This document shows, one piece after another, positions 3,029 to 50,257 of a DNA stretch of 64,000 nucleotides; within the stretch, counting starts at the first letter, position 1, and every line of letters starts with the position of its first letter. The position numbers and the translations under genes are program-made. Location of the stretch: IMG/VR virus record IMGVR_UViG_3300010052_000170, positions 5,927-69,926 of that record. The stretch is one strand, 5' to 3'. Source of the DNA: a virus. Lineage: Duplodnaviria; Caudoviricetes. The notes under the pieces are model-generated. The model had not been told where the DNA came from, made no database searches, and was given only the letters and a program-made list of their open reading frames with translations.

Positions 3029-3252
3029 TTCGTTGCCTTCCTGATGGCGGATTTGAGCGCGATGCGCAGTTCTCGAATGGTGTCGACGCCCATCGGACCG
3101 AAGCGAAAGTCCTCGCCTTTGGCGGCCATGAAGCCGTTGCTCCAGCAGAGCAGGTCCGAAATCGCGTCTTGGATTTGCTTGGCCTGGCTCTCGCTCATCT
3201 GGAGGGTGACAACGGCCTCGCCGACGTTGCGGTAATCCGGATCGATGATCAT
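3025..3252 (-). CDS. Hypothetical protein
   Basis: 75 aa from MIIDPDY; ATGA overlaps at both ends. Confidence 0.65.
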   Translation of the reverse strand: MIIDPDYRNVGEAVVTLQMSESQAKQIQDAISDLLCWSNGFMAAKGEDFRFGPMGVDTIRELRIALKSAIRKATK

Positions 3253-4274
3253 GCCGCCTCCTGCTCTAGGAAGCGGTCGATCTTCTCTTTCGCCCAAGGC
3301 TTCATCTGGATGTGGCGGGTGCCGTCGTTGAAAGGCCGCGCGCCGGGCCATTCGCCACTGTCGAGACATTCGCGGATCTTGTCGAGCGACCAGCGGACAA
3401 CCTGCTCGCCCCGGTCGATTTCGTGAACCGACACCTCGGCATGCGTGGTGTCCGGCACGTCATCCTTGAGGATGTAGAGCAGGGCGAAGGTGTCGAATGG
3501 CACGTCGAGGCTGCGGCAGACCATGCGGGTGATCGCAGCCTGCAGGTAATAGCAGGCGTCGAAAATCTGCTTCTCAAGGAATTCCTCGTCGAAGCTGGAG
3601 GCCGTTTTCAGGTCGGCAAAGACGCCATCGGCGCGCGGGATCGCGTCCGGTCGAGCCTTGAGCCAGATACCGGTCTTCGGGTCTTTCCAGAACATGGACC
3701 GTTCGATGCGGCCGTTGAGGATGCCACCCTGGATCAAGGGATGCTGTGCGGCGTCGGCGCGCATGCGCTCGATCAGTTTCAGGTCATCTCGGCTGATGAC
3801 AGTTCGGCCCTTGGCGTTCGCTTCCAGCCATCCCTTGCAAACATTCGACGAAGGGTGCCAAGGCTTAAAGTTGCCGGTCTTCTCGTCGGGATATGTATCG
3901 GGACGGACGACGAACTGCTCCTCGAAGACTTCGTCACCGAGCAGAAGGCAATGCGCGGCCTTTCCGAAGTCGAGCGCCTTTGTCGTCTCCGGCGTGATGT
4001 GATCCGGGTTCCACTTCCAGCGACCCCAGAATGCCTTCGGGCTTCCGCCATGGGCTGGCACCAGCCATTTCAGCATGCTCTTGGAGATCGAAGGACCGTC
4101 CAACAGATCGCGGTTGCCGTGATAATCTTCGAGCGAGATGCCGCTGTAGATGCCCGGCTCCGAGATCGGCTTGCCATCCCAGACGCGTTCCTTGCGGATG
4201 TTGCCTACCAGGGCATTCGCGATTGAGCCGATGGACTGAAAGGCGTCCCTGTCGATATCGACGTGGGTGTTCAT
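3249..4274 (-). CDS. RecE/exonuclease VIII-like PD-(D/E)XK nuclease (DUF3799)
   Basis: ISKSML, ALDFGKAAHCLLL, LKARPD...DLKT, YYLQAA; directly upstream of recT. Confidence 0.85.
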   Translation of the reverse strand: MNTHVDIDRDAFQSIGSIANALVGNIRKERVWDGKPISEPGIYSGISLEDYHGNRDLLDGPSISKSMLKWLVPAHGGSPKAFWGRWKWNPDHITPETTKALDFGKAAHCLLLGDEVFEEQFVVRPDTYPDEKTGNFKPWHPSSNVCKGWLEANAKGRTVISRDDLKLIERMRADAAQHPLIQGGILNGRIERSMFWKDPKTGIWLKARPDAIPRADGVFADLKTASSFDEEFLEKQIFDACYYLQAAITRMVCRSLDVPFDTFALLYILKDDVPDTTHAEVSVHEIDRGEQVVRWSLDKIRECLDSGEWPGARPFNDGTRHIQMKPWAKEKIDRFLEQEAA

Positions 4275-4465: not shown

Positions 4466-4641
4466 GCCCGGCGCTCCCACCAAGTTGAGACCGTGACGAG
4501 CAGAGCCAAGCCGACCATGGAAGCGTTGAGCTTGTCCGTGGCCCACAGAGCCGGCAGGACGTCCCATGCGGCGGAAGCCATGCCGAAGGTGCAGATCACC
4601 AACATGCAGTTCCAGACGTAGCGGTGTATGGTGAGTGTCAC
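4462..4641 (-). CDS. Small membrane protein (59 aa, not in ORF track)
   Basis: GTG start overlapping the upstream stop: MTLTIHRYVWNCMLVICTFGMASAAWDVLPALWATDKLNASMVGLALLVTVSTWWERRA; two hydrophobic stretches; ATGA overlap downstream. Confidence 0.6.
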   Translation of the reverse strand: MTLTIHRYVWNCMLVICTFGMASAAWDVLPALWATDKLNASMVGLALLVTVSTWWERRA

Positions 4642-37173: not shown

Positions 37174-37256
37174 CTCCTGTATCCGCTCGTCGGCCAGTTT
37201 TATCATCGCCTAACCGCCCTTCGGCAAGGCATCCCCACTACTGAAAGGAAAGACCG

Positions 37257-37730
37257 ATGACGGTGACAACCGCCTCGGGGTCGAAGGTATCGATCGGCCC
37301 GACAACCGCCGCGGCGAATGCCGCTGCCTATGCCGCCTTGACCTATGTCCCCATTGGCGAGGTGCAGAACCTTGGTGAGTTCGGCGACCAGTCGAACGAC
37401 GTGACGTTCACTTCGTTGTCGGATGGTCGCGTGCGGCACCTGAAGGGCGCCCGTGATGCCGGCGTGCTCGCCTTGGTCTGCGGCCGTGATCCTCTCGATG
37501 CGGGACAGGTGGCGCTCAGGGCAGCTGAAAAAACCAAATTTGCCTATGCGGTCAAGATCGAAGCGGCGGATGCTCTCGACGCGAATGACACCAACAGCGT
37601 GTTTTACTTTCACTGCCTGGTGCAGTCGGCGCGTGACAATTTCGGCGAGAGCGATGGCATCGTGACGACGACTTTCAATCTCGGCATAACGACCGGAATC
37701 ATCGAAGTTCCAGCGACGGTGGTGCCGTAA
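37257..37730 (+). CDS. Major tail tube protein
   Basis: YVPIGEVQNLGEFGD....VTF.SL.DGRVRHLKG..DAG...L....DP.DAGQVAL. Confidence 0.85.
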   Translation: MTVTTASGSKVSIGPTTAAANAAAYAALTYVPIGEVQNLGEFGDQSNDVTFTSLSDGRVRHLKGARDAGVLALVCGRDPLDAGQVALRAAEKTKFAYAVKIEAADALDANDTNSVFYFHCLVQSARDNFGESDGIVTTTFNLGITTGIIEVPATVVP

Positions 37731-38560: not shown

Positions 38561-40549
38561 ATGGCAGAGATGCATTACAAAGTTGAGGTGGAAAGCGACC
38601 ACATCAGAAAACTTACCAGTTCCAAGCCCGTTCCTGCCCTTGCGGAACTAGTTTGGAATTCGATGGACGCGGATTCAACTCGCGTAGACGTAGAGTTCGA
38701 TCGGTCTGAGCTCGGAATGCAAAGTATCTTCGTGCGGGACAATGGACACGGGATACCCTATGCGGAAGTGCCGAAACTCTTTGGCAAGCTTGGCGGTTCA
38801 TGGAAGGCCCACGGAAGTCGCTCAAAGACAAAATCGCGCATGTTGCACGGGAAAGAGGGCAAGGGACGCTTCAAAGCACTTGCTCTAGGTCGCGTCGCTG
38901 AGTGGCAAATTACATACCGCGAAGGAAGCAAGACGTTCGGGTACACGATCACGATTATCCGTGACAACTTAGTCGATGTTCGCGTCTCGGAGCTGACCGA
39001 AATTGACGCCGCGATAAAGCCTGGCGTCGAGGTGAAGATCACTGAATTGGATCGAGCCTTTAGGTCACTCGAACCCGAGCAATCGCTCTCTTCTCTCGCC
39101 CAGATATTCGCTTTGTATCTGACAGATTACTCGGACACCTCGCTTTTCGTTGACTATCAACGCGTCGATCCGTCGGCTTGGATCAAAAGCAGGTCAACGA
39201 TCTCCCTTGCGGCGATTGAAGAGGATGGGAACAGCTTCCCCGCCGAGGTTGAGTTGATAGAGTGGACCACCGCTTCTGAGCGTTGGCTTTTCCTCTGCGG
39301 GCCCGAAGGATTTCCATTCCATCGGATAAGTCCCCATTTCCATACGCCGGGCGTTCAGTTTTCCGCATATCTGAAATCTCCGTTTGTCAGCCATCTCCAG
39401 CAGCTTGGAATTTTGGACCTTGCCGAAATGAACATGTCGCTGCAGTCGGCTCTTGATGAAGCTGGGGGCAAAATAAAGCTCTTCTTCCAAGAACGAGATG
39501 CCCTTGCCGCTCGTACAGAAATCGATCAATGGAAAGCGGAGAGCGTTTATCCCTATCGAGAAGAACCTCGGACGACGGTAGAGCAGGCAGAGCGCAAGGT
39601 TTTTGAGATCGTCGCGCTCACCGTCAATCGGCACCTCCCAGAGTTTTCGGGCGCCAATCGTAAAACGAAGGCGTTTCAGTTGCGTATGCTCCGACAGGCC
39701 ATTGAGCGAGGCCCAGACGAACTTCAGCACATTCTTACAGAGGTTCTCGATCTCCCCGAGCGAAAGCAGCAGGAACTCTCGAAGTTGTTGGAAGAGGCTG
39801 ACTTAGCAAGTGTTATCAGCGCTTCAAAATTGGTGTCGGATCGCCTCAAATTTGTGCATGGGCTGGAGGCACTGCTCTTCGACCCGGACAGTCGGAAGCT
39901 CCTCAAGGAAAGGAGCCAACTCCATCGAATGATTGCGGAAAACAATACCTGGATTTTTGGCGAGGAATTCAATCTCACGGTTGACGATGAATCGCTGACT
40001 GAAGTTCTCAGAAAACACCGCAAGTTAGTTGGCGAAGATATTGTCATTGACCAACCTGTGAAGCGAATTGATGGAAAGGTCGGAATTGTCGACTTGATGC
40101 TCTCTCGGTCGGTCCCGCAAAATCACGCAGATGAGAGAGAGCATCTGGTGGTCGAATTGAAACGTCCGTCTGTGAAGGTTGGCGCAGACGAAATCACTCA
40201 GGTGAAAAAATACGCCTTTACGATCGCAGACGATGAACGATTTAGACATCTGAAGACACGGTGGAGCTTCTGGGTAATATCGAACGACCTTGATGCCTTC
40301 GCTCGTCGAGAGACAAGACATATGGGGAAACCCAAAGGCCAAGTGTTTCAGTCCGAGGACGGAAACATAGAGGTTTGGGTAAAGTCCTGGTCCGAAGTCT
40401 TAGCAGAGTGCAAGTCGCGGATGAAATTCGTCCAGGATCATTTGCAGGCAAATGTCGACAAGGAAAAGTCGCTTCGGTACCTCCAAAAAACCTACGACAA
40501 GTATCTGGCCGGGGTCGTGGAGATTGAAGCACCCGATGAGGCAGCCTGA
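38561..40549 (+). CDS. GHKL (MORC/HATPase_c_3-like) ATPase fused to a PD-(D/E)XK nuclease-like domain
   Basis: ELVWNSMDA, VRDNGHG, GKEGKGRF; C-terminal TWIFGEEF, IVDLML, LVVELKRP, EITQVKKYA. Confidence 0.85.
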   Translation: MAEMHYKVEVESDHIRKLTSSKPVPALAELVWNSMDADSTRVDVEFDRSELGMQSIFVRDNGHGIPYAEVPKLFGKLGGSWKAHGSRSKTKSRMLHGKEGKGRFKALALGRVAEWQITYREGSKTFGYTITIIRDNLVDVRVSELTEIDAAIKPGVEVKITELDRAFRSLEPEQSLSSLAQIFALYLTDYSDTSLFVDYQRVDPSAWIKSRSTISLAAIEEDGNSFPAEVELIEWTTASERWLFLCGPEGFPFHRISPHFHTPGVQFSAYLKSPFVSHLQQLGILDLAEMNMSLQSALDEAGGKIKLFFQERDALAARTEIDQWKAESVYPYREEPRTTVEQAERKVFEIVALTVNRHLPEFSGANRKTKAFQLRMLRQAIERGPDELQHILTEVLDLPERKQQELSKLLEEADLASVISASKLVSDRLKFVHGLEALLFDPDSRKLLKERSQLHRMIAENNTWIFGEEFNLTVDDESLTEVLRKHRKLVGEDIVIDQPVKRIDGKVGIVDLMLSRSVPQNHADEREHLVVELKRPSVKVGADEITQVKKYAFTIADDERFRHLKTRWSFWVISNDLDAFARRETRHMGKPKGQVFQSEDGNIEVWVKSWSEVLAECKSRMKFVQDHLQANVDKEKSLRYLQKTYDKYLAGVVEIEAPDEAA

Positions 40550-40617
40550 GGATAACGCGGTCCGCCTAATTGCCGGAGTCCAAACGGCTTGGATATGATC
40601 CTCGCGGGGTAGGGATC

Positions 40618-42045
40618 ATGACAGACGACATTTGGGCCGGGGATCATCTCAATCGCAAGGAAGATGCGCAGTTTCTTACTGCCTATCTGCTGCAGCGAAA
40701 CGAACTTGCGGTTGTTGTCGGCGACAAGGGCACTTCGATCAACGTGAGCGCACAATGGGGCGCCGGGAAGACGTTCTTTCTGACTAGGCTTGCCCGGCAA
40801 CTTCGAGAAGATGGCTATCGCGTTGCCGAGGTGAACGCCTGGCGAGACGATCATGCTGACGACCCGATTTTCGCGGTGATGTCTGCAGTGCTCAAGGCGC
40901 TCGGGAAGGGGACCAGGTCTGCGAAGGTTGGCAGAACGCTGCTCAACAGCGCAGGCAAGATTGCGGTGCGAGCGTTGAAGGGCGGAGTGAAGAAGGCTGC
41001 TGCGATCGTAATCGACAAAGACGATGTAGACGGCATCGCGGACGACCTCGCCAGGGTTTTTGCGGAAGCAGGAGAGGAGACCATCGGAGAATTTGCCGAC
41101 AAAGCACTGGAGCGCTTTGAAGACGGTCAGAAAGCAATTGATAATTTCCGTTCCGAATTGGCGAAAGGAGTGAAGGGGCAGAAGCCGCTGTTTGTCCTGG
41201 TCGACGAATTGGACCGCTGCAGGCCCACCTACGCGGTCTCCCTATTGGAGCGCATCAAGCACCTTTTTGACGTCCCCAATGTCATCTTCGTTTTTGGGAC
41301 GCACAGTGACCAGCTCACGCACACGATAAGGTCAGTTTATGGAATTGGCTTCGATGCCGATCGATATCTCCATCGCTTCTTCGACACCACGTATCAATTC
41401 GACAGCCCAAAAACTGTGAACTTCGTGCAGGCTAAATGGGATGCCCTTCAGTTTAAGGATGCGCGTTTCGTAGAGATACACGGCACCAGCCAGCAAGCCT
41501 GTATTGCTAAGATCGCCGACAACAAAAGGCTCTCGCTACGCGACATTGATCAATGCATGGACGCGCTTTGGACCATAACCGGTCAACTCGACCCGCGCGT
41601 ACCTGTACCTCTTTTGTATCTCTTCCCGCTGGTTGTTGCCTACCATCTGCGATTGACCGATGTATTCGAGTTTGGGGCGGGTGAACCGGCTCGGGCATCG
41701 CTGCGGCAAGATGAAATCCAAGCTTTTTATGACGGTTCGGAGATATACAGCCGACAGATTTACAGCCGCACATCTCAGAATCACATCTGGCAAACGATGT
41801 CTCTTTCGCCCTTGATTTCTGCGTTCCGGTCTCTGCTCGCCAACGGATTGAACCAAGATGTTGCGTCCGACAATCTCGGCTATTCATATGCAGAGCGCTA
41901 TCGAGACGCTGAATTCCGAATTCTTCACTCGAGCATGTCTCGAGGAGAAAAGGTCCCAACGATCCTAGAATCGTATGGGAGCATGATCAGACGGGTCGGG
42001 CGCATAGGAGCCACCCCTGAAAATGATGAAGGTGAGCGCCGCTAG
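40618..42045 (+). CDS. KAP-family P-loop NTPase
   Basis: AQWGAGKTFF (Walker A), VNAWRDDH, LFVLVDELDRCRPTYAVSLLERIKHLFDVPNVIFV, RYLHRFFD. Confidence 0.92.
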   Translation: MTDDIWAGDHLNRKEDAQFLTAYLLQRNELAVVVGDKGTSINVSAQWGAGKTFFLTRLARQLREDGYRVAEVNAWRDDHADDPIFAVMSAVLKALGKGTRSAKVGRTLLNSAGKIAVRALKGGVKKAAAIVIDKDDVDGIADDLARVFAEAGEETIGEFADKALERFEDGQKAIDNFRSELAKGVKGQKPLFVLVDELDRCRPTYAVSLLERIKHLFDVPNVIFVFGTHSDQLTHTIRSVYGIGFDADRYLHRFFDTTYQFDSPKTVNFVQAKWDALQFKDARFVEIHGTSQQACIAKIADNKRLSLRDIDQCMDALWTITGQLDPRVPVPLLYLFPLVVAYHLRLTDVFEFGAGEPARASLRQDEIQAFYDGSEIYSRQIYSRTSQNHIWQTMSLSPLISAFRSLLANGLNQDVASDNLGYSYAERYRDAEFRILHSSMSRGEKVPTILESYGSMIRRVGRIGATPENDEGERR

Positions 42046-42072
42046 CAGTGAATGTCACGCAAAACGTGAAAC

Positions 42073-42285
42073 TCAGTCCGAAGCTTTGAGATAACCATGG
42101 CTGATGAGCCAATCGCGGATGATGCGGCGGATCGCTTCAGAGCGGGGTGGTTTGTCCGTTTCATCCAGGGCGAAAGCGTCGATTGCGTCAGTGAGCTCCG
42201 GCTCCATGCGAACGCTAATATGTGGTTGCTTCCCGGTAGCCGGGCGGCCTCGTTTTTTAGGTGTTACATTTTTTGTTGACGGCAT
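42073..42285 (-). CDS. Ribbon-helix-helix (Arc/CopG-like) regulator
   Basis: KKRGRPATG...ISVRMEPEL..AID.F......RSEAIRRIIRDWL. Confidence 0.85.
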   Translation of the reverse strand: MPSTKNVTPKKRGRPATGKQPHISVRMEPELTDAIDAFALDETDKPPRSEAIRRIIRDWLISHGYLKASD

Positions 42286-42304
42286 ATTTTAGGTGTGCCA
42301 TAAA
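42255..42304 (+). promoter_or_regulatory. Sigma70-type promoter with direct repeats, driving the RAMP-like operon
   Basis: TTGACG (42276-81)-N17-CATAAA (42299-304); TTTTAGGTGT at 42255-64 and 42287-96. Confidence 0.65.
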
Positions 42305-42374
42305 AGTCGGGCCGAAGCAAGAGTACCAGTCTTGCAGCGGCCCTAACCGAAACGAACCTGTTAGCGAGGATCGA

Positions 42375-42593
42375 ATGGCTGCGAACAGCAGTACCATGCG
42401 CCGGCGTGCACGCTCAACTCATTCAAAACGCGAAGCAATCATTGTCGACCTGATGGCCCAGGCTGAAGGTGCCGGCAAAGCGCTTCGCGTTCTTTCGAAG
42501 GTCGTGGCCGACACGATGGAAGAGGTTCACGGACGCAAGTTCCGTGTCTGCATCGACCACGACACCCCGATGATTCTGATCCGGCTCGACTAA
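42375..42593 (+). CDS. Small hypothetical protein (HG..RV.IDH family)
   Basis: GAGGA RBS; resembles 7976-8215. Confidence 0.65.
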   Translation: MAANSSTMRRRARSTHSKREAIIVDLMAQAEGAGKALRVLSKVVADTMEEVHGRKFRVCIDHDTPMILIRLD

Positions 42594-42605
42594 GGGGAGG
42601 GACGG

Positions 42606-42914
42606 ATGAAACAGATCACTCGTCGCCTTTTTCTTCGCCAATCCGTCGCCGCCAGCGTTGTGGCTCCGGCCGTCGTCGCAGCTACCGGAGTGGTGGCCGA
42701 ACCGCGGCAGGTGCGAGATGTCATGGAAGAGCTTGAACGCTTGATCCAAAAGCAAACTGGTGTGGGCTGGTCGGTGATGCTAGCCGCCAACGAGACGATT
42801 ATCCTAGATGGGATGCCAAGACTGCCCATGGTCTGCTTCGCTCGAAGCTCGGACGGAACCCCGCAGTGGCAAGACAAATACGGCGTAGTCGAAACTGCGT
42901 CGGTGACCACCTGA
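42606..42914 (+). CDS. Small protein with twin-arginine-like N-terminus
   Basis: MKQITRRLFLRQSVAASVVAPAVVAA; GGGAGG RBS. Confidence 0.6.
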   Translation: MKQITRRLFLRQSVAASVVAPAVVAATGVVAEPRQVRDVMEELERLIQKQTGVGWSVMLAANETIILDGMPRLPMVCFARSSDGTPQWQDKYGVVETASVTT

Positions 42915-43043
42915 ACACCTGAATTCCGCCTCTGGCAGGGCGGTTTAGACGCGAAATTCGAGAGCTTCTTCGGCTCCCGGTTTCGCCAACGCGAACCCGT
43001 GCGTCTCGGGCCTGCCAGGGCCGGGATGCCGAAGGAGGCCATT

Positions 43044-43697
43044 ATGGCTACGAAGCAAGACGTCGGAATTGAACTGCCGGCCCTGAAAATCGGGCTGATG
43101 GAAGTGACCTTGATCGGCGACAGTCCGCTGATCGTCCATGCGTGGAGCCACAAGGCAAAGCGCGAAATGCTCGACAAACAGATGAAGAAGGCCAAGGGCG
43201 CCAAGGAGGCGAAAGACCCGAAGGCCGATTATGAGGCGAGCATGTATCGCTTGGCCGATGGTGGTTACGGCTTCCCCTCGGTGGGCTTCAAGGCCGCCGC
43301 AGTCACGGCAGGAACCAGCGTGGCAGGGTTGACCAAGATCGCGGCTCGGCAGGCTTTCCACGTTCTCGGTGAGGATGTGGACATCAAGGGTGCATTCGAA
43401 GGCTCGGTCTCTCGCGTCAACCTTGCCCGTATCGAAGGCGGAGATCCGCAGATGCGCGAAGACATGGTTCGCGTCGGCATGGGAACGGCAGACCTACGGT
43501 ACAGGGCTGAGTTCCCGAAATGGCATGCACGCGTTCTGGTTAGGTACAATCAGGGCGTCCTATCGGAAAGCCAGATCCTGAACCTGCTCAATACAGCTGG
43601 CTTCGCTGTCGGCGTAGGCGAGTGGCGGCCGGAAAAGGATGGGGCCTATGGGATGTTCCACGTTGCGACCGAAGCCGAACTGGAGACCTTGCAATGA
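43044..43697 (+). CDS. Cas7/RAMP-like protein (Vipr-like), putative RNA-guided effector
   Basis: EVTLIGDSPLIVH (RAMP beta1, like L...SPLHIG); YGFPSVGFKAA (like IPGSSLKGA); C-terminal G-loop AGFAVGVGEWRPEKDGAYGMFHV; AAGGAGG RBS; next to the GGY-NN array. Confidence 0.8.
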   Translation: MATKQDVGIELPALKIGLMEVTLIGDSPLIVHAWSHKAKREMLDKQMKKAKGAKEAKDPKADYEASMYRLADGGYGFPSVGFKAAAVTAGTSVAGLTKIAARQAFHVLGEDVDIKGAFEGSVSRVNLARIEGGDPQMREDMVRVGMGTADLRYRAEFPKWHARVLVRYNQGVLSESQILNLLNTAGFAVGVGEWRPEKDGAYGMFHVATEAELETLQ

Positions 43698-44209
43698 GGA
43701 TCGCCGGTTTCGAGTTTAGCGATGGTGCTCGGTTCCAGGCGGGAGCGCCGCACGACGCCAAGGCAGCGAAGGCCGTCGGCGACCATTTGGAGTTACTGAG
43801 GAAGCAGCACCAGAATGAGTTGACGCCGGAAGACGTCTTGGAAGACGCGAAGCACGACAACTCACCATTGCATCCGTACTTTGAATGGTCAGACAGTGCC
43901 GCTGCGCATCAGCACCGGCTCGCGCAAGCGCGAGGGTTAATCAGGAGCGTCGTCGCGATCTATGTCAGCGAGGATAAGCCGGCCGTGAGGACGAAGGCGT
44001 TCGTGCATATCGCTGAACCGTCTGCACCTCACTATCGAGAAGCATCGCACGCGATGAGCCAGCAGAAGACACGAAAGATGGTTCTTCAGCAGGCGTGGCG
44101 AGAGCTCCAAGCTTGGAAGTCCCGCTACAAACATCTGCAGGAATTTTCTGATCTTATCACCGTCATCGACGAGGTAGATCGGCATCTGCCAAAGGCCGCA
44201 AAGCATTAG
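43694..44209 (+). CDS. Accessory protein coupled to the RAMP-like gene
   Basis: ATGA overlap; LTPEDVLEDAKHDNSPLHPYFEWSDSAAAHQHRLAQARGLIRSV. Confidence 0.8.
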   Translation: MRIAGFEFSDGARFQAGAPHDAKAAKAVGDHLELLRKQHQNELTPEDVLEDAKHDNSPLHPYFEWSDSAAAHQHRLAQARGLIRSVVAIYVSEDKPAVRTKAFVHIAEPSAPHYREASHAMSQQKTRKMVLQQAWRELQAWKSRYKHLQEFSDLITVIDEVDRHLPKAAKH

Positions 44210-44217
44210 GGCTTCAA

Positions 44218-44590
44218 GGCAGGCGGGGTCTGGCATGTCCGGGTTCGGTGTGCCCTGGCGCGCCATGGTTAGGCAGGTGAAATGCGCGGAGCCGGATGCC
44301 CATCCGGCTGGCGAGGATCAAGGTAGGGCAGGCGTGGTAAGTCCAGGGAAGGTGGGACACGGCCGGGTAAGGTGCGGCAGGCTTGGCTAGGCGGGTTGCG
44401 GCTAGTCGCGGCACGGCAGGCAAGGCAAGCCTAGGTCCGATTTGGCAAGGTATGGCTTGGCTAGGCAGGCAAGGCACGGCGAGGTTCGGCGCGGTAAGCC
44501 TAGGTTCGGCGACGCATGTTATGGCAGGCGTGGTATGTTAAGCTAAGGCATCGTACGGTGAGGCCGGGCCTGCTCTGGCGAGGCAGGCAA
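44218..44590 (+). ncRNA. GGY-NN pentamer array (putative guide-RNA precursor, 7 units)
   Basis: Strict 5-nt periodicity; eight 4-nt GGCA breaks at 44218, 44272, 44327, 44376, 44415, 44464, 44523, 44582; begins 8 nt after the accessory stop and ends at a terminator. Confidence 0.85.
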
Positions 44591-44594
44591 ACGG

Positions 44595-44620
44595 GAGCGG
44601 TTCTTCGGAGCCGCTCTTTC
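44595..44620 (+). terminator. Terminator closing the array
   Basis: gagcggttc-TTCG-gagccgctc followed by tttc. Confidence 0.7.
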
Positions 44621-45218
44621 ATCTCCCGAACAGGCGTTGCAGCCACGACTTCCTGCTTGCTTCATGCTCCGTCTCCTCCCGGTGGGCAGCAACCACCTTT
44701 CCAACGTAGTCAACCTGAGGGCGGATGCCGAGTGCGCAAGCCTCGTTAGCGCAATCACCCGGCGGCAGCGTGTGTAGTTGTTCCGGCTCGATCTCTTGGT
44801 TGTTCAGCCTGACGCAGCCTGGACAGTCACCCCACGCCAACCTGATGTGAAATGTCACGTCATCTCCGAGATCGGTGCCGACCAACGCTTGCATTTGTCG
44901 ATGTCGAAAGTATGCGAAATTTGCATCCAGAACGGTGACTTCAATGCCCTTTATCGGGGCGGATAGTCCTTTCTCGGTTAGTGCGGATATAGCTTCATGC
45001 GACATGTCAGCATTTGCGCGAAGGCCAATGCTTTTCTTGGCTTCCCGGGGAAGGGGCTGCCCGGTCTGCCGAAACTGCCGCGCAATCTGGTGTGGATGAG
45101 TTCCTTCGTATTCCTCCATAAGAGCCGCAATTTGCTGGAAACACTCTGGCTTGAGGTATCCGAGGCGACGGCCTGATCGGTCGACGTGTTCAAGGAACTT
45201 GCTTCCATGGTCAGTCAT
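44619..45218 (-). CDS. Hypothetical moron
   Basis: 199 aa; CPGC and C...C..C motifs; ends SWLQRLFGR. Confidence 0.65.
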   Translation of the reverse strand: MTDHGSKFLEHVDRSGRRLGYLKPECFQQIAALMEEYEGTHPHQIARQFRQTGQPLPREAKKSIGLRANADMSHEAISALTEKGLSAPIKGIEVTVLDANFAYFRHRQMQALVGTDLGDDVTFHIRLAWGDCPGCVRLNNQEIEPEQLHTLPPGDCANEACALGIRPQVDYVGKVVAAHREETEHEASRKSWLQRLFGR

Positions 45219-45495
45219 GGAAGTTCTTTGTCATGTTCCGGCAAGATTTCTCGTTAAGCGGGCTGCCTTCCCGACTTTGGGCTTCGACGTAGGCAATCAT
45301 CTCGACAGACTTCTTGTCTCCAACGAGCCGGCTCGCCTCCTTCTTCGCCCACGCATAGGGCGCAAGATCCTTCAGAATAGGACCGCACTGGTAGGCGGTC
45401 GTTAGGCGAAAGATCGCCTTCTTAACGTCGCCATCACTCGGTTCAGCGTGGGCGACTGCCGACCAGAGACACAACGTCGAAACAAGCCAGCGCAT
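45211..45495 (-). CDS. Secreted small protein moron
   Basis: Signal peptide MRWLVSTLCLWSAVAHA; stop overlaps the start of 44619-45218. Confidence 0.6.
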   Translation of the reverse strand: MRWLVSTLCLWSAVAHAEPSDGDVKKAIFRLTTAYQCGPILKDLAPYAWAKKEASRLVGDKKSVEMIAYVEAQSREGSPLNEKSCRNMTKNFHD

Positions 45496-45558
45496 CCAAA
45501 ACCTCCCATTGAAAAATGGGCGGGACGATAGCGTTTGCCACCGTAAAAGGTAAAGCCC

Positions 45559-47751
45559 ATGGACGTCGCACAGCTTGGTCTTGAGGTCCGAAGCGAGCAG
45601 GTCGAACGCGGCACCTCGTCTTTGAATCGCTTTGCCGGCGCAGCCAAGCAGGCGGAGGCGGCAACAAAAGGGATCACGACTGGCGCTCGCGGTGCAGCTA
45701 GCGCTGTGCAGGCCGTGGCTGGTGCCAGCGACAATGCGGCAGGTGCTCTCAATCGTGAGGCTGGAGCTGCGCGGAATGCTTCCGCCGCCATGAAGGGGCA
45801 CGCCACCGCGGTCAATGACAATGCGAGGCGCATGGGAGGTAGCTTTTCTGGCCTAGCCGCTCAGTTTCAAGACATCGGGGTCACTGCTGCCGGTGGCATG
45901 AACCCCCTCATAATCGGCCTGCAGCAAGGCACACAGATTGCCGGTGCAATGGAAATGGCGATGCAAAGCGGCGCATCCGCGACTGGTGTATTTGGCGCCG
46001 CGCTAAAATCCCTCCTCTCGCCTGTCTCGCTCCTTTCGATCGGCCTTGCTGTGCTACTCGCCGCCGGCCTTCAGATGGTGAACTGGTCGAAGGCCGCTGC
46101 TGCCGTACTAGATGGGCTGGCCGGTATCCTGGAAGATATTGCGCCGTACGCCGTTGCCGCTGCGGCTGGGTTGGCGCTGATTTACGCGCCGGCCATCATC
46201 GGAGGCCTGACACTCCTTTCCGAGATGATCCTTGGGCTAACGGCAAGGCTCATCGGATTGGCTGCTGGCTTCGCTCTCGCCAACCCGGCCACTGCCTTCA
46301 TTGCCGGTGTCACAGCGGCAGTAGCGGCCGCGGTCATTTTCAGGGACGAATTGACCAGAATTCTGGGGGTGGATGTCGTTGGCGCTGCCAAGGCTGGGGC
46401 AAATTTTATCGTCAACAGCTTCGAAGCCGCCTTTTCAGATGTGAAGTTCATCTGGAACAATTTCGGCGACATGATGGGGGCCGCTGTTGTCGGCGGGGTC
46501 AACATTGCTATCCGTGCCATCGACGAACTTATCCAGAAAGCATCGGAAGGCATCGACTGGCTCATTAAGAAGGTCAACCCATACCTGGAAATGGGCGGCA
46601 TGGACCCACTCAGGGAAGTGGGCGGAAGCTTTTCGCTCAAGCCACTCGCCAACCCATACGCTGACCGTTTCGCCAAGGCCAACACCTCCCACGCTGCAGA
46701 AATCGCCGACATCATGAGCCAGGATCGGCTCGGCCAGTTTGGTACAGCGATTGCAAATCGCGCTTCGGCCGCGTCTGGCAAGTTGAAGGAACTGGCCGAT
46801 TGGGTTGGAAAGGTCGACGAAAAGACCGGCAAGAAGGCGGGTAAAAGCGAGGCCGAAAAATACTCATCGATCATCGACGGAGCGAACCGCCGCATAGCTT
46901 CGTTGCAGTCCGAATACGACGCGCTCGGCATGACCGAGTTCGCCGCCGCTAAACTAGCGTATCAGACAGACATGCTGAACGAGGCGCAGCGCAAGGGGAT
47001 CACCCTTACCGCGGCTCAGAAGGCTGAGATTTCTGATCTCGCAGGCCGCTTGGCTTCGCTTGAGATCGCCACGCGCGACGCCCGCGATGCGATGGACTTC
47101 GCGAAGGACATGACGAAGGGCTTCGTTTCGGATCTCCGCTCAGGCTTGGAGCAGGGAAAAGGCTTCTGGCAGAGCTTCGGCAATGCGGCGCTGAACGTCC
47201 TCGACAAGATCACAGACAAGTTGCTTGACGACTTGCTGAACGCCATCTTCAGGGTGAACTCGGCAGGGTCTTCTGGCGGCGGCGGTTTCTGGGGCATCCT
47301 CGGAAGCCTGTTCGGCCTTGGTGGGGGAGGTGGCAGCGGCCTCGGTGGTCTGACCTGGGATAGCTGGGCTAAAGGCGGTTACACCGGACCTGGAGGCAAG
47401 TACGAGCCTGCTGGCACGGTACATCGAGGCGAATATGTCTTCTCGGCCGCTGCAACCCGCATGATCGGCGTGGCCAACCTCGACCGTGCTCACAGGAGTG
47501 CTCGGCGCGGCTATGCCGAGGGCGGCTACGTCGACAACAGCACACCACGTCTGTTTGCCCCGGCAAACCGGAATGACGCTCAGCCAATCGTCTATTCGCC
47601 GACGATCCAGATCGACGCTCGTGGCGCAGAGAATGGTGACGACATCCGCCGTGCCGGCCAGGAGCTTCTGAAGCAGATGCGCGGCGAATTCTACAACAAC
47701 ACGAAGAAGGCGTTGCAGCTGCTCAAGATCAACACCGGAGGGCGGTTCTGA
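45559..47751 (+). CDS. Tape measure protein (730 aa)
   Basis: MDVAQLGLEVRS; AAQFQDIGVTAAGGMNP...LQQGTQI; Ala/Gly-rich; AKGGYTGPGGKYEPAGTVHRGEYVF. Confidence 0.92.
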   Translation: MDVAQLGLEVRSEQVERGTSSLNRFAGAAKQAEAATKGITTGARGAASAVQAVAGASDNAAGALNREAGAARNASAAMKGHATAVNDNARRMGGSFSGLAAQFQDIGVTAAGGMNPLIIGLQQGTQIAGAMEMAMQSGASATGVFGAALKSLLSPVSLLSIGLAVLLAAGLQMVNWSKAAAAVLDGLAGILEDIAPYAVAAAAGLALIYAPAIIGGLTLLSEMILGLTARLIGLAAGFALANPATAFIAGVTAAVAAAVIFRDELTRILGVDVVGAAKAGANFIVNSFEAAFSDVKFIWNNFGDMMGAAVVGGVNIAIRAIDELIQKASEGIDWLIKKVNPYLEMGGMDPLREVGGSFSLKPLANPYADRFAKANTSHAAEIADIMSQDRLGQFGTAIANRASAASGKLKELADWVGKVDEKTGKKAGKSEAEKYSSIIDGANRRIASLQSEYDALGMTEFAAAKLAYQTDMLNEAQRKGITLTAAQKAEISDLAGRLASLEIATRDARDAMDFAKDMTKGFVSDLRSGLEQGKGFWQSFGNAALNVLDKITDKLLDDLLNAIFRVNSAGSSGGGGFWGILGSLFGLGGGGGSGLGGLTWDSWAKGGYTGPGGKYEPAGTVHRGEYVFSAAATRMIGVANLDRAHRSARRGYAEGGYVDNSTPRLFAPANRNDAQPIVYSPTIQIDARGAENGDDIRRAGQELLKQMRGEFYNNTKKALQLLKINTGGRF

Positions 47752-48356
47752 TGGTCGCCCTCCCAGACGTCGAATATTCAAAGGGCCTTCCGAAGCTCAT
47801 CCGCTCGGTGTCGCAAAGCCGAGCCGGCAATCGGCTTGTGTCGAGCGTCGAGTACGCAGATCCGTTTTGGCAGATCGAGATGGAGACTGGTCCACTCGAT
47901 CCAGCTCTCGCGCCCACGGTTCGGGCCTTCCTCGAAGAGGCGAACGGCGGCACGAAGACTGTGTTGTGGGCACCGTCCTACCTCAAGGTCCCTCAAGCCT
48001 ACTGGGCAAATCCTGGCGCCCTGGCCCCATCGATCGATGGTCTGCTGGCGAGTGTGACCAATGGGTTCAACGTTGCGATCAGCAGCACCGCCGCCGGTCT
48101 CGATATCAGGCGAGGCGACATGATCTCCATGACCTATGGCGCCTACCGTTCGCTCCACCGCGTGATGGTTGGTGCCGTCGGCGGGGCAGGGATCAACCTG
48201 ACGCTCGAGCCCTTCGTACCGCCATACATCACGCCTGGCGCGACGGTGAAGTTCAAAGGGCTGTCCCTTAACACGAGGATGGTCGTCGGATCAGACAGCA
48301 TGACAGACGACTACAACCCGGTGGCGACATTCACCCTCGTAGAGGTGCCCCAATGA
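47751..48356 (+). CDS. Minor tail (distal tail-like) protein
   Basis: Follows the tape measure; YADPFWQIEMET; ATFTLVEVP. Confidence 0.7.
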   Translation: MVALPDVEYSKGLPKLIRSVSQSRAGNRLVSSVEYADPFWQIEMETGPLDPALAPTVRAFLEEANGGTKTVLWAPSYLKVPQAYWANPGALAPSIDGLLASVTNGFNVAISSTAAGLDIRRGDMISMTYGAYRSLHRVMVGAVGGAGINLTLEPFVPPYITPGATVKFKGLSLNTRMVVGSDSMTDDYNPVATFTLVEVPQ

Positions 48357-48436
48357 GTATCCAGACGACTTCCCTATTAATAGAAGTGACGCGCCTAGAA
48401 ATCGCTCTAAATTCCGATGAATGCAGCACAGGCTAC

Positions 48437-48928
48437 CTAGAAAGCGCTAGCGTTGGTGCCGATCGTGAGCTTCACGGTTTGCGTCGGACCGTCCCAAACA
48501 AAATTGCAGAACTGCAAAAAGCGGCGACCAAGAACAATCTTGAACCGCTTTCCTTCTGCAACGAAATTCCGCCCAACCACATACATATCGATAACGCGGC
48601 TCTGCTCGATCACGAACAAAGATCCTCGGTGAGCACGGGAACCCGAAGAATTGTTGACTGTAAGTGAGTGACCGCCGGTCGCCACCGGGCATCCGTATTG
48701 CTTAATTAGAGTGTCGTCCACGTAGACATTGTCAGCACCGGTATCGATCAAGGCCCATTCCCTGGAATGGTTAACCACATTGGTCCGGCCCTGAGTAACT
48801 GCAGGGTTCCAGAAAAAGCCGATTAGTACGCAAGGTTCCGCGTTGACGAACTGAAATGCGTCCGCTGACGGAGCGTCGTCAATCGCGCTTGTAGCAGTCG
48901 TCAAATGTCTGACTGGGATTTCAGTCAT
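48437..48928 (-). CDS. Retropepsin-like aspartyl protease moron
   Basis: ALIDTGA catalytic motif and IVLGRRFLQ. Confidence 0.75.
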   Translation of the reverse strand: MTEIPVRHLTTATSAIDDAPSADAFQFVNAEPCVLIGFFWNPAVTQGRTNVVNHSREWALIDTGADNVYVDDTLIKQYGCPVATGGHSLTVNNSSGSRAHRGSLFVIEQSRVIDMYVVGRNFVAEGKRFKIVLGRRFLQFCNFVWDGPTQTVKLTIGTNASAF

Positions 48929-49002
48929 CTAACACCCTCCCATGACCCCGTCGCTAAGAAAGCAGCGAGTCGAGGGGGAGTCTATATTCGGTTGGAACCT
49001 CC

Positions 49003-49566
49003 ATGACTTTCCCCACACGTCTAGAGCAGCTTCTCGAAGACGGCCGCATCGCTATCCGTGGCCTGATCCTCTACCAGTTCGGCAACGAATGGATGGGCGT
49101 GTGGACGGGCAATTACGAGCTCGTCTACGAAGGCGTGACCTATGTACCGAACCAGCTCATCAGCGCCGAACCGCCGGACGGCGCAATGGGCATGGAGGCG
49201 ACCGAGTTCGTGATCTCTATGCCGGCGCGCTCAGACTTCGGCATCATGCCCGACAAGCTCGCCCTGATCGAAAGCCAAGATTACAAGGGCCGGCCGTGCA
49301 AGCTACGCGAGGCCTACTTCGATCCCGACACGCGCGAGTTGCTGCATGTCGAAGAACTTGCCTTCGGCTATGTCGACTTCATCAAGCACGTCACCGAAGG
49401 CGGCGAGATGCGCCTTGAGGGTCATGTTATCTCCGGCGCGCTGGACAACCACCGCGACGGCTACCGCTCCGCATCGCATGAGGATCAGCAACTGATCTCG
49501 GCCGGCGATCGCGGTTTCGAATACGCCACGGTCATCAAGACCGAGAAATTCGATATCGAACTCTGA
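49003..49566 (+). CDS. Minor tail protein (DUF2163/gpL-like)
   Basis: YRSASHEDQQLISAGDRGFEY; position in the tail-tip cluster. Confidence 0.7.
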   Translation: MTFPTRLEQLLEDGRIAIRGLILYQFGNEWMGVWTGNYELVYEGVTYVPNQLISAEPPDGAMGMEATEFVISMPARSDFGIMPDKLALIESQDYKGRPCKLREAYFDPDTRELLHVEELAFGYVDFIKHVTEGGEMRLEGHVISGALDNHRDGYRSASHEDQQLISAGDRGFEYATVIKTEKFDIEL

Positions 49567-49571
49567 GGCAT

Positions 49572-49799
49572 TTGCCGATGCAAGAACTGCCATCTCGTGG
49601 GGAGTTGCAGGATGCCTGCGACCGCTTCAACGAAATCCACAAGGTAGGTGACGTGATCAACGTCTGGCTTGGCGACGCTGAAGGCCCAACCGAGGAGCGA
49701 GTGATCTCCGCACCGGCCGAACCGCTCGGTAGGCACGCCGCGATCGTCTATGTGACCACCGATCCAGGCTGCATCGCGCTTTCCCATGTGAAGCCCTAA
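49572..49799 (+). CDS. Small hypothetical protein
   Basis: 75 aa; GAGG RBS; ...GCIALSHV. Confidence 0.5.
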   Translation: MPMQELPSRGELQDACDRFNEIHKVGDVINVWLGDAEGPTEERVISAPAEPLGRHAAIVYVTTDPGCIALSHVKP

Positions 49800-49828
49800 C
49801 GCTCACCCTTTCACGGTCTGAAATTCCC

Positions 49829-50257
49829 ATGCTGAAAATTCTGCCTCGGTCGAAAGACTGGGATCGAAGCCTCGCGCGCGTGACGGAGAAGCACATGCGC
49901 CTGCCTGGCGAATGGGGCATGTCCGATTGCCTCATGACCGCAATGGACGCTGTCGAGGCTGTGACCGGCCATGACCCCGCAGCCAAGGTTCGCGGTACCT
50001 ATTCGACCGAACAGGGTGCGGCCAAGCTGCTGCGCCGACGCAAGGCTGAAAATGTTGAGCAGATGCTCGCCAAGCTGTTTCCGAAACTGCCATCGGCGTT
50101 CTCAGTGCTCCGTGGCGATCTGGCTGTTGTCGAGCGCAACGGCGTGCTTTCGGCGGGTTATGTCTGCGAGTACGGGGTAGCGGTCAAAACCGAGACCGGC
50201 CTTACTTTCGTCGACCTCACCGAGATCCGCTCGGCCTATCAGGTGGGTGCCCGGTAA
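49829..50257 (+). CDS. NlpC/P60-like tail protein (DUF6950-like)
   Basis: WGMSDCL....AVEAVTGHDP...RGTYST..GA..LL; RGDLAV. Confidence 0.75.
   Translation: MLKILPRSKDWDRSLARVTEKHMRLPGEWGMSDCLMTAMDAVEAVTGHDPAAKVRGTYSTEQGAAKLLRRRKAENVEQMLAKLFPKLPSAFSVLRGDLAVVERNGVLSAGYVCEYGVAVKTETGLTFVDLTEIRSAYQVGAR

What the first reader, a model, noticed from the sequence alone, without database searches (positions are those of the whole stretch)
47197..47229. Unit 7 decodes to a tape-measure segment
Seen: U7 (44527-44581) reads V-I/M-N/K-K/N-I/M-T-D/E-R-L-L-D/E. The tape measure gene here reads V-L-D-K-I-T-D-K-L-L-D (GTC CTC GAC AAG ATC ACA GAC AAG TTG CTT GAC). That is 17/22 nt, sense strand, in codon phase, with conservative substitutions and one silent CTN>TTG change. 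My rough binomial estimate for at least 17/22 anywhere in the window is about 0.05 per guide, so one hit alone is only suggestive. Three in-phase hits within about 3 kb of the array are much harder to explain by chance. Inference: the true target is the tape measure gene of a related phage.
Basis: partly seen in the sequence, partly recalled or inferred. Interest (0 to 1): 0.85.

Follow-up and report, generated by a model that had tools for sequence, protein, structure and literature searches.

The report
VIPR guide aimed at tape-measure gene
The repeat stretch is the guide-RNA array of a VIPR system, a phage-borne RNA-guided silencer first described in 2026, and its seventh guide matches a conserved motif of tape-measure genes, so it most likely targets a rival phage's tail gene rather than the carrier's own.

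Summary
Unit 7 (44527-44581), read as NN dinucleotides with one skipped base, matches the prophage's own tape-measure gene at 47197-47229 in 17 of 22 positions, sense strand, in codon phase. It is the best hit in the window.

This match alone is weak: 8.7% of NN-order shuffles do as well.
- Against an NN profile of 74 non-redundant tape-measure homologues, U7 scores best at exactly this site (z 6.8, P<0.001).
- All 11 guide states occur in their columns among homologues.
- Related tape-measure genes reach 18-19 of 22.

The system is already known. It is a VIPR locus (bioRxiv 10.64898/2026.04.26.720920), made of:
- a Cas7-like Vipr protein (43044-43697);
- an accessory gene (43694-44209);
- a staggered GGY/NN vrRNA array (44218-44585);
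- a terminator.

The published one-base-skip rule holds in this clade. There are 28 near-perfect sub-guide hits against 0 for controls and for other skip lengths. Sister guides reach 18/18 and 19/20 in related phages.

No target of 20/22 or better was found for U7 in any of three large collections.

Verdict: real, correctly interpreted, a new member of a known kind.

The parts
42073..42285 (-). Divergently transcribed ribbon-helix-helix gene upstream of the cassette. It is probably the local regulator.
   Evidence: Pfam RHH_1, E 1.3e-5. A homologue lies upstream of vipr in 8 of 13 related loci. Its role is inferred.
43044..43697 (+). vipr: a 217-aa minimal RAMP (Cas7-like) protein, expected to polymerise on the vrRNA.
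   Evidence: AlphaFold2 mean pLDDT 96.1. Foldseek PDB top hits are Csm3, Cmr4, type VII Cas7 and Cas7-11, E 1e-6 to 1e-4, probability 1.0. Conserved glycines lie in the C-terminal GVGEWRPEKDG segment. No Pfam family. 7472 homologues at 90% clustering, all unnamed.
43694..44209 (+). vap-like accessory gene (171 aa). Its start overlaps the vipr stop (ATGA).
   Evidence: Always follows vipr in the 13 related loci. 592 homologues, all Rhizobiales. phrog_15946, function unknown. The model (pLDDT 80.5) has no significant structural match.
44218..44585 (+). Staggered vrRNA array. It holds seven units of GGY/NN pentamers separated by 4-nt GGCA register breaks. Unit 2 is a conserved hairpin element, not a guide.
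   Evidence: GGCAGG occurs at 44218, 44272, 44327, 44376, 44415, 44464, 44523 and 44582. Across 57 pentamers G1 is 96%, G2 75% and Y3 98%, and the NN positions carry about 0.1 bit. The same architecture follows vap in every related locus, with unrelated NN content. No Rfam family.
44468..44522 (+). Unit 6 guide (AA AC GA TC GC AA TA TC GA AT AT).
   Evidence: 19/22 at the homologous TMP site (KTEAEKYSDIV) in 8 related loci, 0 of 300 shuffles as good. Profile z 8.1 at residue 429.
44527..44581 (+). Unit 7 guide (GT AT AA AA AT AC GA CG CT CT GA). This is the subject of the finding.
44590..44618 (+). Terminator-like hairpin followed by a T-run, closing the array transcript.
   Evidence: Read directly from the sequence. 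Stronger equivalents sit at the same place in L009, L014, L015 and L020.
45559..47751 (+). The carrier phage's own tape-measure gene.
   Evidence: phrog_8892, E 1.1e-91, plus 13 further families, 10 of them tape-measure families.
47197..47229 (+). Own-gene copy of the U7 target motif (VLDKITDKLLD, residues 547-557), matching 17/22 (77%).
   Evidence: This is below the >=80% NN identity at which the VIPR papers call targets.
46843..46875 (+). Own-gene copy of the U6 target motif (KSEAEKYSSII, residues 429-439), matching 17/22.

Best explanation
The 368-nt G-rich stretch at 44218-44585 is the guide array of a VIPR (Viral Interference Programmable Repeat) system carried by this prophage. The expected mechanism comes from the SUSP1 system. 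Vipr protomers (43044-43697) bind one GGY per pentamer and present the NN dinucleotides. These pair with double-stranded DNA while skipping every third base, and the bound complex blocks transcription.

Unit 7 encodes the NN string of a conserved tape-measure motif, V-I-(N/K)-(K/N)-I-T-(D/E)-R-L-L-(D/E). Its cognate target is therefore the tape-measure gene of a competing, related siphophage. Silencing that gene would stop the rival's tail assembly.

The 17/22 match to the carrier's own tape-measure gene is the shadow of homology between the carrier's gene and the rival's. Five mismatches keep the carrier's gene below the level at which targets are called.

Shown here: the RAMP fold, the array grammar, the skip-1 rule in this clade, and the site-specific fit of U7 to the TMP family.

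Inferred: expression and processing of the vrRNAs, RNP formation, repression as the outcome, and the identity of the actual rival.
For: (1) Published mechanism. GGY/NN vrRNAs with the 1-nt skip rule, skip bases at codon wobble positions, targets in competing phages and in other VIPR systems, staggered arrays with 1-nt overlapping vrRNAs, and no self hits at >=80%.

(2) Vipr fold. pLDDT 96.1, Foldseek hits to Csm3, Cmr4 and Cas7 at E 1e-6.

(3) Array grammar and conservation. All 13 loci found with the vap protein have the array after vap wherever downstream sequence is held. The NN content is hypervariable.

(4) The rule holds in this clade. 9-NN sub-guides from 14 arrays against 1.0 Mb of related loci give 97/28/6 hits at >=16/17/18 of 18 with skip 1. 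Skips 0, 2 and 3 give 2/0/0, 2/0/0 and 1/0/0. Reversed guides with skip 1 give 5/0/0.

(5) Sister guides. U3 is 18/18 in a major-tail-like gene of L008 and of Phyllobacterium sp. YR531 (L171). U1 is 19/20 in vap of L008 and L010. U6 is 19/22 in 8 TMP genes.

(6) U7 itself:
- Profile log-odds is 15.95 (all 138 loci) or 16.15 (74 non-redundant loci), at TMP residue 547. The 1000 shuffles have mean 4.0-4.1 and maxima 12.4 and 14.0, so P<0.001.
- Each of its 11 NN states occurs in its column, in 7 to 80 of about 100 homologues.
- Whole-guide matches are 18/22 in L056, L072 and L078 (P 0.04) and 19/22 in L205.
- The sub-guide covering NN 3-11 is 17/18 in L056.
Against: - No target with 20/22 or more was found.
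- The exact 22/22 pattern has 0 hits in IMG/VR, in the GTDB species genomes and in the JGI metagenomes.
- In 58 TMP loci from GTDB genomes the best U7 score is 16/22, which is not significant (P 0.88).
- In 401 Rhizobiales genomes all 17 hits have exactly 3 mismatches. None lies in a TMP gene and five lie in a conserved ABC ATPase. The reversed-pattern control gave 7 hits.
- The 19/22 hit in L205 came from a search that fixed 14 of the guide positions, so it has no clean P value.
- The skip rule and repression were shown experimentally for a different VIPR type (SUSP1, P. fulva). tblastn did not link this Vipr to any Escherichia phage at E<=1e-3.
Confidence: 0.8

Rival explanations
1. Chance resemblance. 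U7 has some other target or none, and the tape-measure match is a coincidence helped by codon-like NN composition.
For: Window-only shuffle P is 0.087. 19/22 hits occur at near-background frequency in unrelated genes of 401 genomes, 17 against 7 for the control. A relaxed 16-base pattern in IMG/VR returned 28 hits, about the number expected by chance, and only two were in TMP genes.
Against: The profile test places the best score exactly at the reported site with P<0.001, in both redundant and non-redundant profiles. U6, the adjacent guide, maps to the same gene family with z 8.1. The NN 3-11 sub-guide is 17/18 in L056, whereas the reversed-guide control gave no hit at that threshold anywhere in the same scan.
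Confidence: 0.07
2. Self-regulation. U6 and U7 bind the carrier's own tape-measure gene through partial complementarity, for example to keep late tail genes quiet in the lysogen or to time their expression.
For: Both guides have their best in-window hit in the carrier's own TMP gene, on the sense strand, in phase, about 350 nt apart. The cassette sits immediately upstream of that gene.
Against: 17/22 is 77%, below the >=80% at which natural targets are called. The VIPR papers found no self hits at >=80%, and they report that perturbing NN pairing abolished silencing. Related phages' TMP genes match better than the carrier's own. At the U1 site the carrier's own vap copy looks recoded away from the guide, which points to avoidance of self-binding.
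Confidence: 0.07
3. Fossil guide. U7 derives from or once matched a tape-measure variant, but it has drifted or its target lineage is gone, so it no longer silences anything.
For: No target at 20/22 or better in three large collections. Three of the 11 U7 pentamers depart from GGY, all at the second G (GTT, GCT, GCT), and CGT departs at the first.
Against: Internal GGY degeneracy is described as common in functional vrRNAs. The collections hold only a few hundred members of this TMP family (186 in IMG/VR and 58 in GTDB). Multiplying the column frequencies (my arithmetic, assuming independent columns) predicts the exact variant at roughly 1 in 10^5 to 10^6, so its absence is expected. U3 in the same array still has perfect targets.
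Confidence: 0.12

Closest known systems
VIPR systems (Vipr + Vap + vrRNA), bioRxiv 10.64898/2026.04.26.720920; structures in 10.64898/2026.04.26.720927; phage-satellite competition in 10.64898/2026.10.15.759431
   Same: - A small single-RRM RAMP protein.
- An adjacent accessory gene.
- A GGY/NN pentamer RNA with hypervariable NN.
- The 1-nt skip code aligned to codon wobble positions.
- Targets in competing phages and in rival VIPR loci.
- No self hit at >=80%.
- A 'staggered' array with register shifts of one base.
- A prophage location.
   Different: This clade was not linked by tblastn to any Escherichia phage. The units have no long structured 3' tail and are separated only by GGCA. The Vap here has no recognisable fold. 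The predicted targets are tail-module structural genes (major tail protein, tape measure), not lysis-lysogeny regulators or a satellite recombinase. All predicted target sites lie on the coding strand. Which of the seven published types this locus belongs to could not be decided from the text held.
Class 1 CRISPR-Cas backbone (Cas7/Csm3/Cmr4 filaments on crRNA)
   Same: The RAMP fold. According to the VIPR structural paper, both form a periodic filament on a guide RNA in which a thumb breaks the guide-target duplex at fixed intervals.
   Different: There is no repeat-spacer array. I ran no search for cas1/cas2. The guide information is 2 of every 5 nt read against 2 of every 3 nt, not 5 of 6 contiguous bases. 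The system is carried by a phage.
TRAP-type RNA recognition (11 G/UAG triplets spaced by 2-3 nt)
   Same: A roughly 5-nt periodicity of a short conserved motif in an RNA, read by a protein oligomer. This is from my own knowledge, and I considered it before finding the VIPR papers.
   Different: TRAP is a regulatory attenuation protein with no guide function. No TRAP-like protein is encoded here, and the spacer bases here carry target information.

Membership tests
VIPR system | Vipr protein: a small (~20 kDa) minimal RAMP with an RRM core, a glycine-rich loop and a thumb | tested here: met
   217 aa. AF2 pLDDT 96.1. Foldseek to Csm3, Cmr4, type VII Cas7 and Cas7-11 at E 1e-6 to 1e-4. Invariant G186, G190 and G203 and near-invariant G192 and G200 lie in the C-terminal loop region. 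I did not map a thumb domain explicitly.
VIPR system | vrRNA locus: tandem GGY/NN (YNNGG) pentamers next to vipr, 9-16 per guide, GGY conserved and NN hypervariable | tested here: met
   Six guide units of 7-11 pentamers. G1 96%, G2 75%, Y3 98%, NN about 0.1 bit. NN content is unrelated between loci whose Vap is 64-79% identical.
VIPR system | Targets follow the 1-nt skip rule, not 0, 2 or 3 skipped bases | tested here: met
   Skip 1 gives 28 hits at >=17/18. Skips 0, 2 and 3 give 0, and reversed guides give 0. This is computational only.
VIPR system | Natural targets at >=80% NN identity in other mobile elements, and none in the carrier itself | tested here: met
   U1 19/20, U3 18/18, U6 19/22 and U7 18-19/22 in related phages or prophages. 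The best own-window scores are 15/20, 17/22 and 17/22, all at or below 78%.
VIPR system | An accessory vap gene co-located with vipr | tested here: inconclusive
   A conserved 171-aa gene always follows vipr. Its relation to the published vap1-6 could not be tested. Foldseek found nothing at E<=0.001 and VIA-align matched only a generic C-terminal helical hairpin at Z<=6.2.
VIPR system | Sequence homology to an experimentally characterised Vipr (SUSP1 or P. fulva) | tested here: inconclusive
   tblastn against 50,697 phage records at E<=1e-3 hit Gordonia, Mycobacterium, Pseudomonas (LESphi2) and cyanophage records, but no Escherichia phage. I did not confirm that SUSP1 is in that collection. 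The papers themselves say RAMPs are linked by structure, not sequence.
VIPR system | vrRNAs are expressed and processed and co-purify with Vipr, and the RNP binds dsDNA and represses transcription | not testable with these tools
   Needs small-RNA sequencing, pull-down and reporter assays.
Staggered vrRNA array (fig. S18 of 10.64898/2026.04.26.720920) | Adjacent vrRNAs derive from positions overlapping by 1 nt, so the end of one marks the start of the next | tested here: met
   Each unit boundary is a 4-nt GGCA, which shifts the pentamer register by -1. The GGCAGG spacings are 54, 55, 49, 39, 49, 59 and 59. Perfect U3 targets do not extend into the GGCA(G) unit on either side. Only the figure legend, not the figure, could be read.
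CRISPR-Cas | A repeat-spacer array with an adaptation module (cas1/cas2) | not tested
   Tandem Repeats Finder and direct reading show no repeat-spacer array in 40000-50000. I ran no dedicated cas1/cas2 search.

The most novel reading that the evidence does not exclude
In this Rhizobiales and actinophage VIPR clade the cassette is a moron lodged inside the tail module, between the tail chaperones and the tape measure. Its guides are aimed at conserved motifs of rivals' tail genes and at rivals' vap genes. The carrier escapes its own guides partly by switching six-fold-degenerate codon families (Leu CTN to TTA, Arg CGN to AGG, Ser TCN to AGC). This is a synonymous escape route that the wobble-skipping code cannot cover. 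Self/non-self discrimination and the arms race would then be legible in codon-family choice.
Probability: 0.45. Interest if true: 0.55.

Novelty: new member of a known kind. Interest (0 to 1): 0.35.

Why it matters
The finding shows that the VIPR code, established experimentally for coliphage SUSP1 and a Pseudomonas prophage, also predicts targets in a distant, very abundant clade. That clade has 7472 Vipr clusters at 90% identity. It spans Mesorhizobium, Rhizobium, Phyllobacterium, Devosia and other Rhizobiales, with 41-44% identical homologues in Gordonia and Mycobacterium phages.

In this clade the guides point at tail-assembly genes of related phages. This gives concrete, testable guide-target pairs for rhizobial phage competition. 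It also gives a natural series of graded mismatches (17, 18 and 19 of 22) for measuring the mismatch tolerance of VIPR.

It does not reveal a new kind of system.

Tried and rejected
- Rfam scan of 43500-45300 at E<=10 gave only sub-threshold noise.
- blastn of the cassette against 50,697 phage records gave one short hit in Gordonia phage Ecliptus.
- Before finding the VIPR papers I considered a TRAP-like or CsrA-like protein sponge, two-tier G-quadruplexes, a Rho-binding site on the opposite strand, RHH or centromere iterons, and pac/cos sites. I dropped all of these once the literature search and the skip-rule test explained the periodicity.
- The exact U7 pattern had 0 hits in IMG/VR, GTDB genomes and JGI metagenomes. 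The exact U6 pattern had 0 hits in IMG/VR.
- A relaxed 16-base U7 pattern in IMG/VR gave 28 hits, about the number expected by chance.
- U7 with up to 3 mismatches in 401 Rhizobiales genomes gave 17 hits, none in a TMP gene, against 7 for the control.
- I tested whether the constant GGCA(G) unit contributes 'CA' or 'AG' to the guide. The perfect U3 targets do not extend, so it does not.
- The look-up of encoding contigs found no record for the exact Vap sequence.
- ESM Atlas placed both proteins only in unnamed viral clusters.
- PADLOC gave nothing meaningful.
- Vap structure searches found no significant fold match.
- Sequencing runs: no RNA holder is listed for 43000-44700, so no reads were laid.
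- The hairpin in unit 2 folds no better than shuffles (z 0.71). It is conserved in sequence across loci, but its role is unexplained.
Full report
**What is at the coordinates**

Window 47197-47229 reads GTC CTC GAC AAG ATC ACA GAC AAG TTG CTT GAC, which translates to VLDKITDKLLD. It lies in frame at residues 547-557 of the + strand ORF 45559-47751. That ORF matches tape-measure families (phrog_8892, E 1.1e-91).

Their last two bases are GT AT AA AA AT AC GA CG CT CT GA. Read against the first two bases of successive codons this gives 17 of 22 matches, and it is the best U7 score anywhere in the window on either strand.

An NN-order shuffle gives P 0.087 on both strands and 0.045 on the + strand alone. 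For U6 (17/22 at 46843) the value is 0.03, and for U1 (15/20 at 43934) it is 0.30. Within the window alone, then, the match is only suggestive.

**What the 'array' is**

The intergenic stretch 44218-44585 consists of GGYNN pentamers. Their register is reset by a 4-nt GGCA eight times, with GGCAGG at 44218, 44272, 44327, 44376, 44415, 44464, 44523 and 44582. Over 57 pentamers G1 is 96%, G2 75% and Y3 98%, while positions 4 and 5 carry about 0.1 bit. A terminator-like hairpin follows at about 44590-44618. Rfam has no family for it.

Using the upstream 171-aa protein as a probe I fetched 13 related viral loci. Every locus with downstream sequence has the same G-rich pentamer array plus a terminator directly after that gene, and the NN content is unrelated between loci. 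The 217-aa gene before it is also conserved, at 71-83% identity.

**Literature**

[quoted passage not shown] It describes VIPR systems as follows:
- a minimal RAMP protein (Vipr) of about 20 kDa, and an accessory Vap;
- vrRNAs made of 9-16 YNNGG repeats;
- NN dinucleotides that pair with double-stranded DNA under a '1-nt skip rule', with the skipped base usually at the codon wobble position;
- natural targets called at >=80% NN identity, lying in competing phages, satellites and other VIPR loci;
- no self hit reaching 80%;
- 'staggered arrays' in which adjacent vrRNAs overlap by 1 nt.

A structural companion shows Vipr protomers polymerising on the vrRNA, sequestering each GGY and presenting the NN (10.64898/2026.04.26.720927). 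A third preprint uses the same scoring and shuffled-guide nulls that I used (10.64898/2026.10.15.759431).

**Membership tests**

- The 217-aa protein folds with mean pLDDT 96.1. Its best PDB matches are Csm3, Cmr4, type VII Cas7 and Cas7-11, at E 1e-6 to 1e-4.
- It has 7472 homologues at 90% clustering and 3744 representative clusters at 50%, none named.
- tblastn finds 41-44% identical homologues in Gordonia and Mycobacterium phages but no Escherichia phage.
- In Gordonia phage ODay the homologue (gene 19) lies between the tail assembly chaperones and the tape measure. It is followed by a GGCAGG-punctuated GGYNN array.
- The 171-aa Vap-like protein has 592 homologues, all Rhizobiales, and no assignable fold.

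**Does the code work in this clade?**

I cut 189 distinct 9-NN sub-guides from the 14 arrays. I scanned them against 1.0 Mb of related loci with the arrays masked.

| Skip length | Hits at >=16 / 17 / 18 of 18 |
|---|---|
| 0 | 2 / 0 / 0 |
| 1 | 97 / 28 / 6 |
| 2 | 2 / 0 / 0 |
| 3 | 1 / 0 / 0 |
| Reversed guides, skip 1 | 5 / 0 / 0 |

All 28 hits at >=17/18 are in frame on the coding strand.

From this window's array:
- U3 is 18/18 in a ~165-aa major-tail-like gene of L008 and of Phyllobacterium sp. YR531 (L171).
- U1 is 19/20 in the vap gene of L008 and L010.
- U6 is 19/22 at the homologous TMP site (KTEAEKYSDIV) in eight loci, and 0 of 300 shuffles do as well.

**U7 specifically**

- Among 80 IMG/VR tape-measure loci U7 reaches 18/22 at the homologous site in L056 (TLNKIADRLLD), L072 and L078 (VVNRIIDRLLD), with P 0.04.
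- Its NN 3-11 sub-guide is 17/18 in L056.
- A context-anchored pattern found VLNKISDRLLN, 19/22, in the TMP of L205.
- The strongest test is a query-anchored NN profile of TMP homologues with the window itself excluded. U7's best log-odds is 15.95 over 138 loci and 16.15 over 74 non-redundant loci. Both peaks fall exactly at residue 547. The 1000 NN-order shuffles have mean about 4, SD 1.8-1.9 and maxima of 12.4 and 14.0, so P<0.001 and z 6.8.
- Every one of the 11 guide states occurs in its column among homologues.

U7 thus looks like one more allele of the conserved motif V-(L/I/V)-(D/N)-(K/R)-I-x-D-(K/R)-L-L-D.

**What speaks against**

- No target at 20/22 or better was found.
- The exact pattern has no hit in IMG/VR, in 185,579 GTDB species genomes or in the JGI metagenomes.
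- The 58 TMP loci from GTDB give at best 16/22.
- In 401 Rhizobiales genomes the 17 hits at 3 mismatches are all outside TMP genes, against 7 for the reversed pattern.
- Multiplying the column frequencies (my own arithmetic, assuming independent columns) predicts the exact allele at roughly 1 in 10^5 to 10^6 family members. Its absence from a few hundred sampled homologues is therefore expected. The cognate rival nonetheless remains unidentified.

**Interpretation**

The carrier's own tape-measure gene is not the target. At 77% identity it falls below the calling threshold, and related phages' genes match better. The own-gene match exists because the carrier's gene and the rival's are homologous.

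The most likely function is silencing of a related phage's tail operon, with U6 and U7 hitting the same gene about 350 nt apart. This fits the published picture of VIPR as a tool of conflict between phages.

Rivals are self-regulation (0.07), pure chance (0.07) and a drifted fossil guide (0.12).

Expression, processing, RNP formation and repression are all inferred, and no RNA run holds the stretch.

**Verdict**

The system is already described in three 2026 preprints, so this is a new member of a known kind: a staggered-array VIPR clade of Rhizobiales prophages with tail-gene targets.

Noticed in passing
window 43934-43963 (own vap, U1 site): The carrier's own vap encodes GLIRSVVAIY as GGG TTA ATC AGG AGC GTC GTC GCG ATC TAT. 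All 13 relatives use CTN for this Leu, and 11 of 13 use CGN for the Arg. The three relatives with Ser at the fifth codon use TCN. TTA is 1% of Leu codons in this phage's genes. Three synonymous codon-family switches lower the match to the phage's own U1 guide from 19/20 to 15/20. This looks like selected escape from self-targeting.
   Followed up: partly
window 44331-44375 (U3); L008:1644-1670; L171:619-645; window 37182-37718: U3 has perfect 18/18 targets (VKQKGTRNA) in a ~165-aa major-tail-like gene of a related virus and of Phyllobacterium sp. YR531. The window's own homologue is only 31-35% identical.
   Followed up: partly
L210 (Gordonia phage ODay MW534375.1) 2480-3320: A 43% identical Vipr homologue (gene 19, annotated hypothetical) is followed by a GGCAGG-punctuated GGYNN array. 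The cassette sits between the tail assembly chaperone and tape-measure genes, the same neighbourhood as here. Similar homologues occur in 27 Mycobacterium phage records.
   Followed up: partly
window 44276-44330; L008, L017, L018, L020 about 4515-4565; L009-L012 and L014-L016 about 4510-4550: Two alternative conserved hairpin elements precede the arrays. Type A has an AGCCGGATGCCCRTCCGGYT stem-loop and type B has GCCGAGAGTTCC..AACCTCGGGC. In this window alone a guide (U1) lies upstream of the type A element. Their role (leader, processing site or promoter element) is unknown. The window's type A fold is no more stable than shuffles (z 0.71); type B was not folded.
   Followed up: partly
L009:4626-4680 guide; L008:4735-4784 guide: A guide of L009 matches 17-18/18 a motif KFQYNFKVE about 1 kb upstream of the tape-measure gene in about 15 loci. 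A guide of L008 is 18/18 (DVTQKQKGI) in L069:645. Tail-module genes therefore seem to be the usual targets in this clade.
   Followed up: no
all sub-guide hits: All 28 hits at >=17/18 have the guide NN identical to the coding strand, in codon phase. The VIPR paper reports targets on both strands. Only about six independent guide-target pairs are involved, so the bias is not established.
   Followed up: no
window 40570-42045 and 38561-40500: A KAP-family P-loop NTPase (Pfam PF07693, E 1.7e-33) lies just upstream of the VIPR cassette, preceded by a 646-aa ORF with no family found in the one library searched (PADLOC). This may be a second accessory or defence module in the same moron region.
   Followed up: no
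window 44619-45218 and 45211-45801, minus strand: Two opposite-strand ORFs of 199 and 196 aa lie between the array terminator and the tape-measure gene. They have no PHROG, Pfam or PADLOC match. The second overlaps the annotated start of the tape-measure ORF, so one of the two starts is probably wrong.
   Followed up: no
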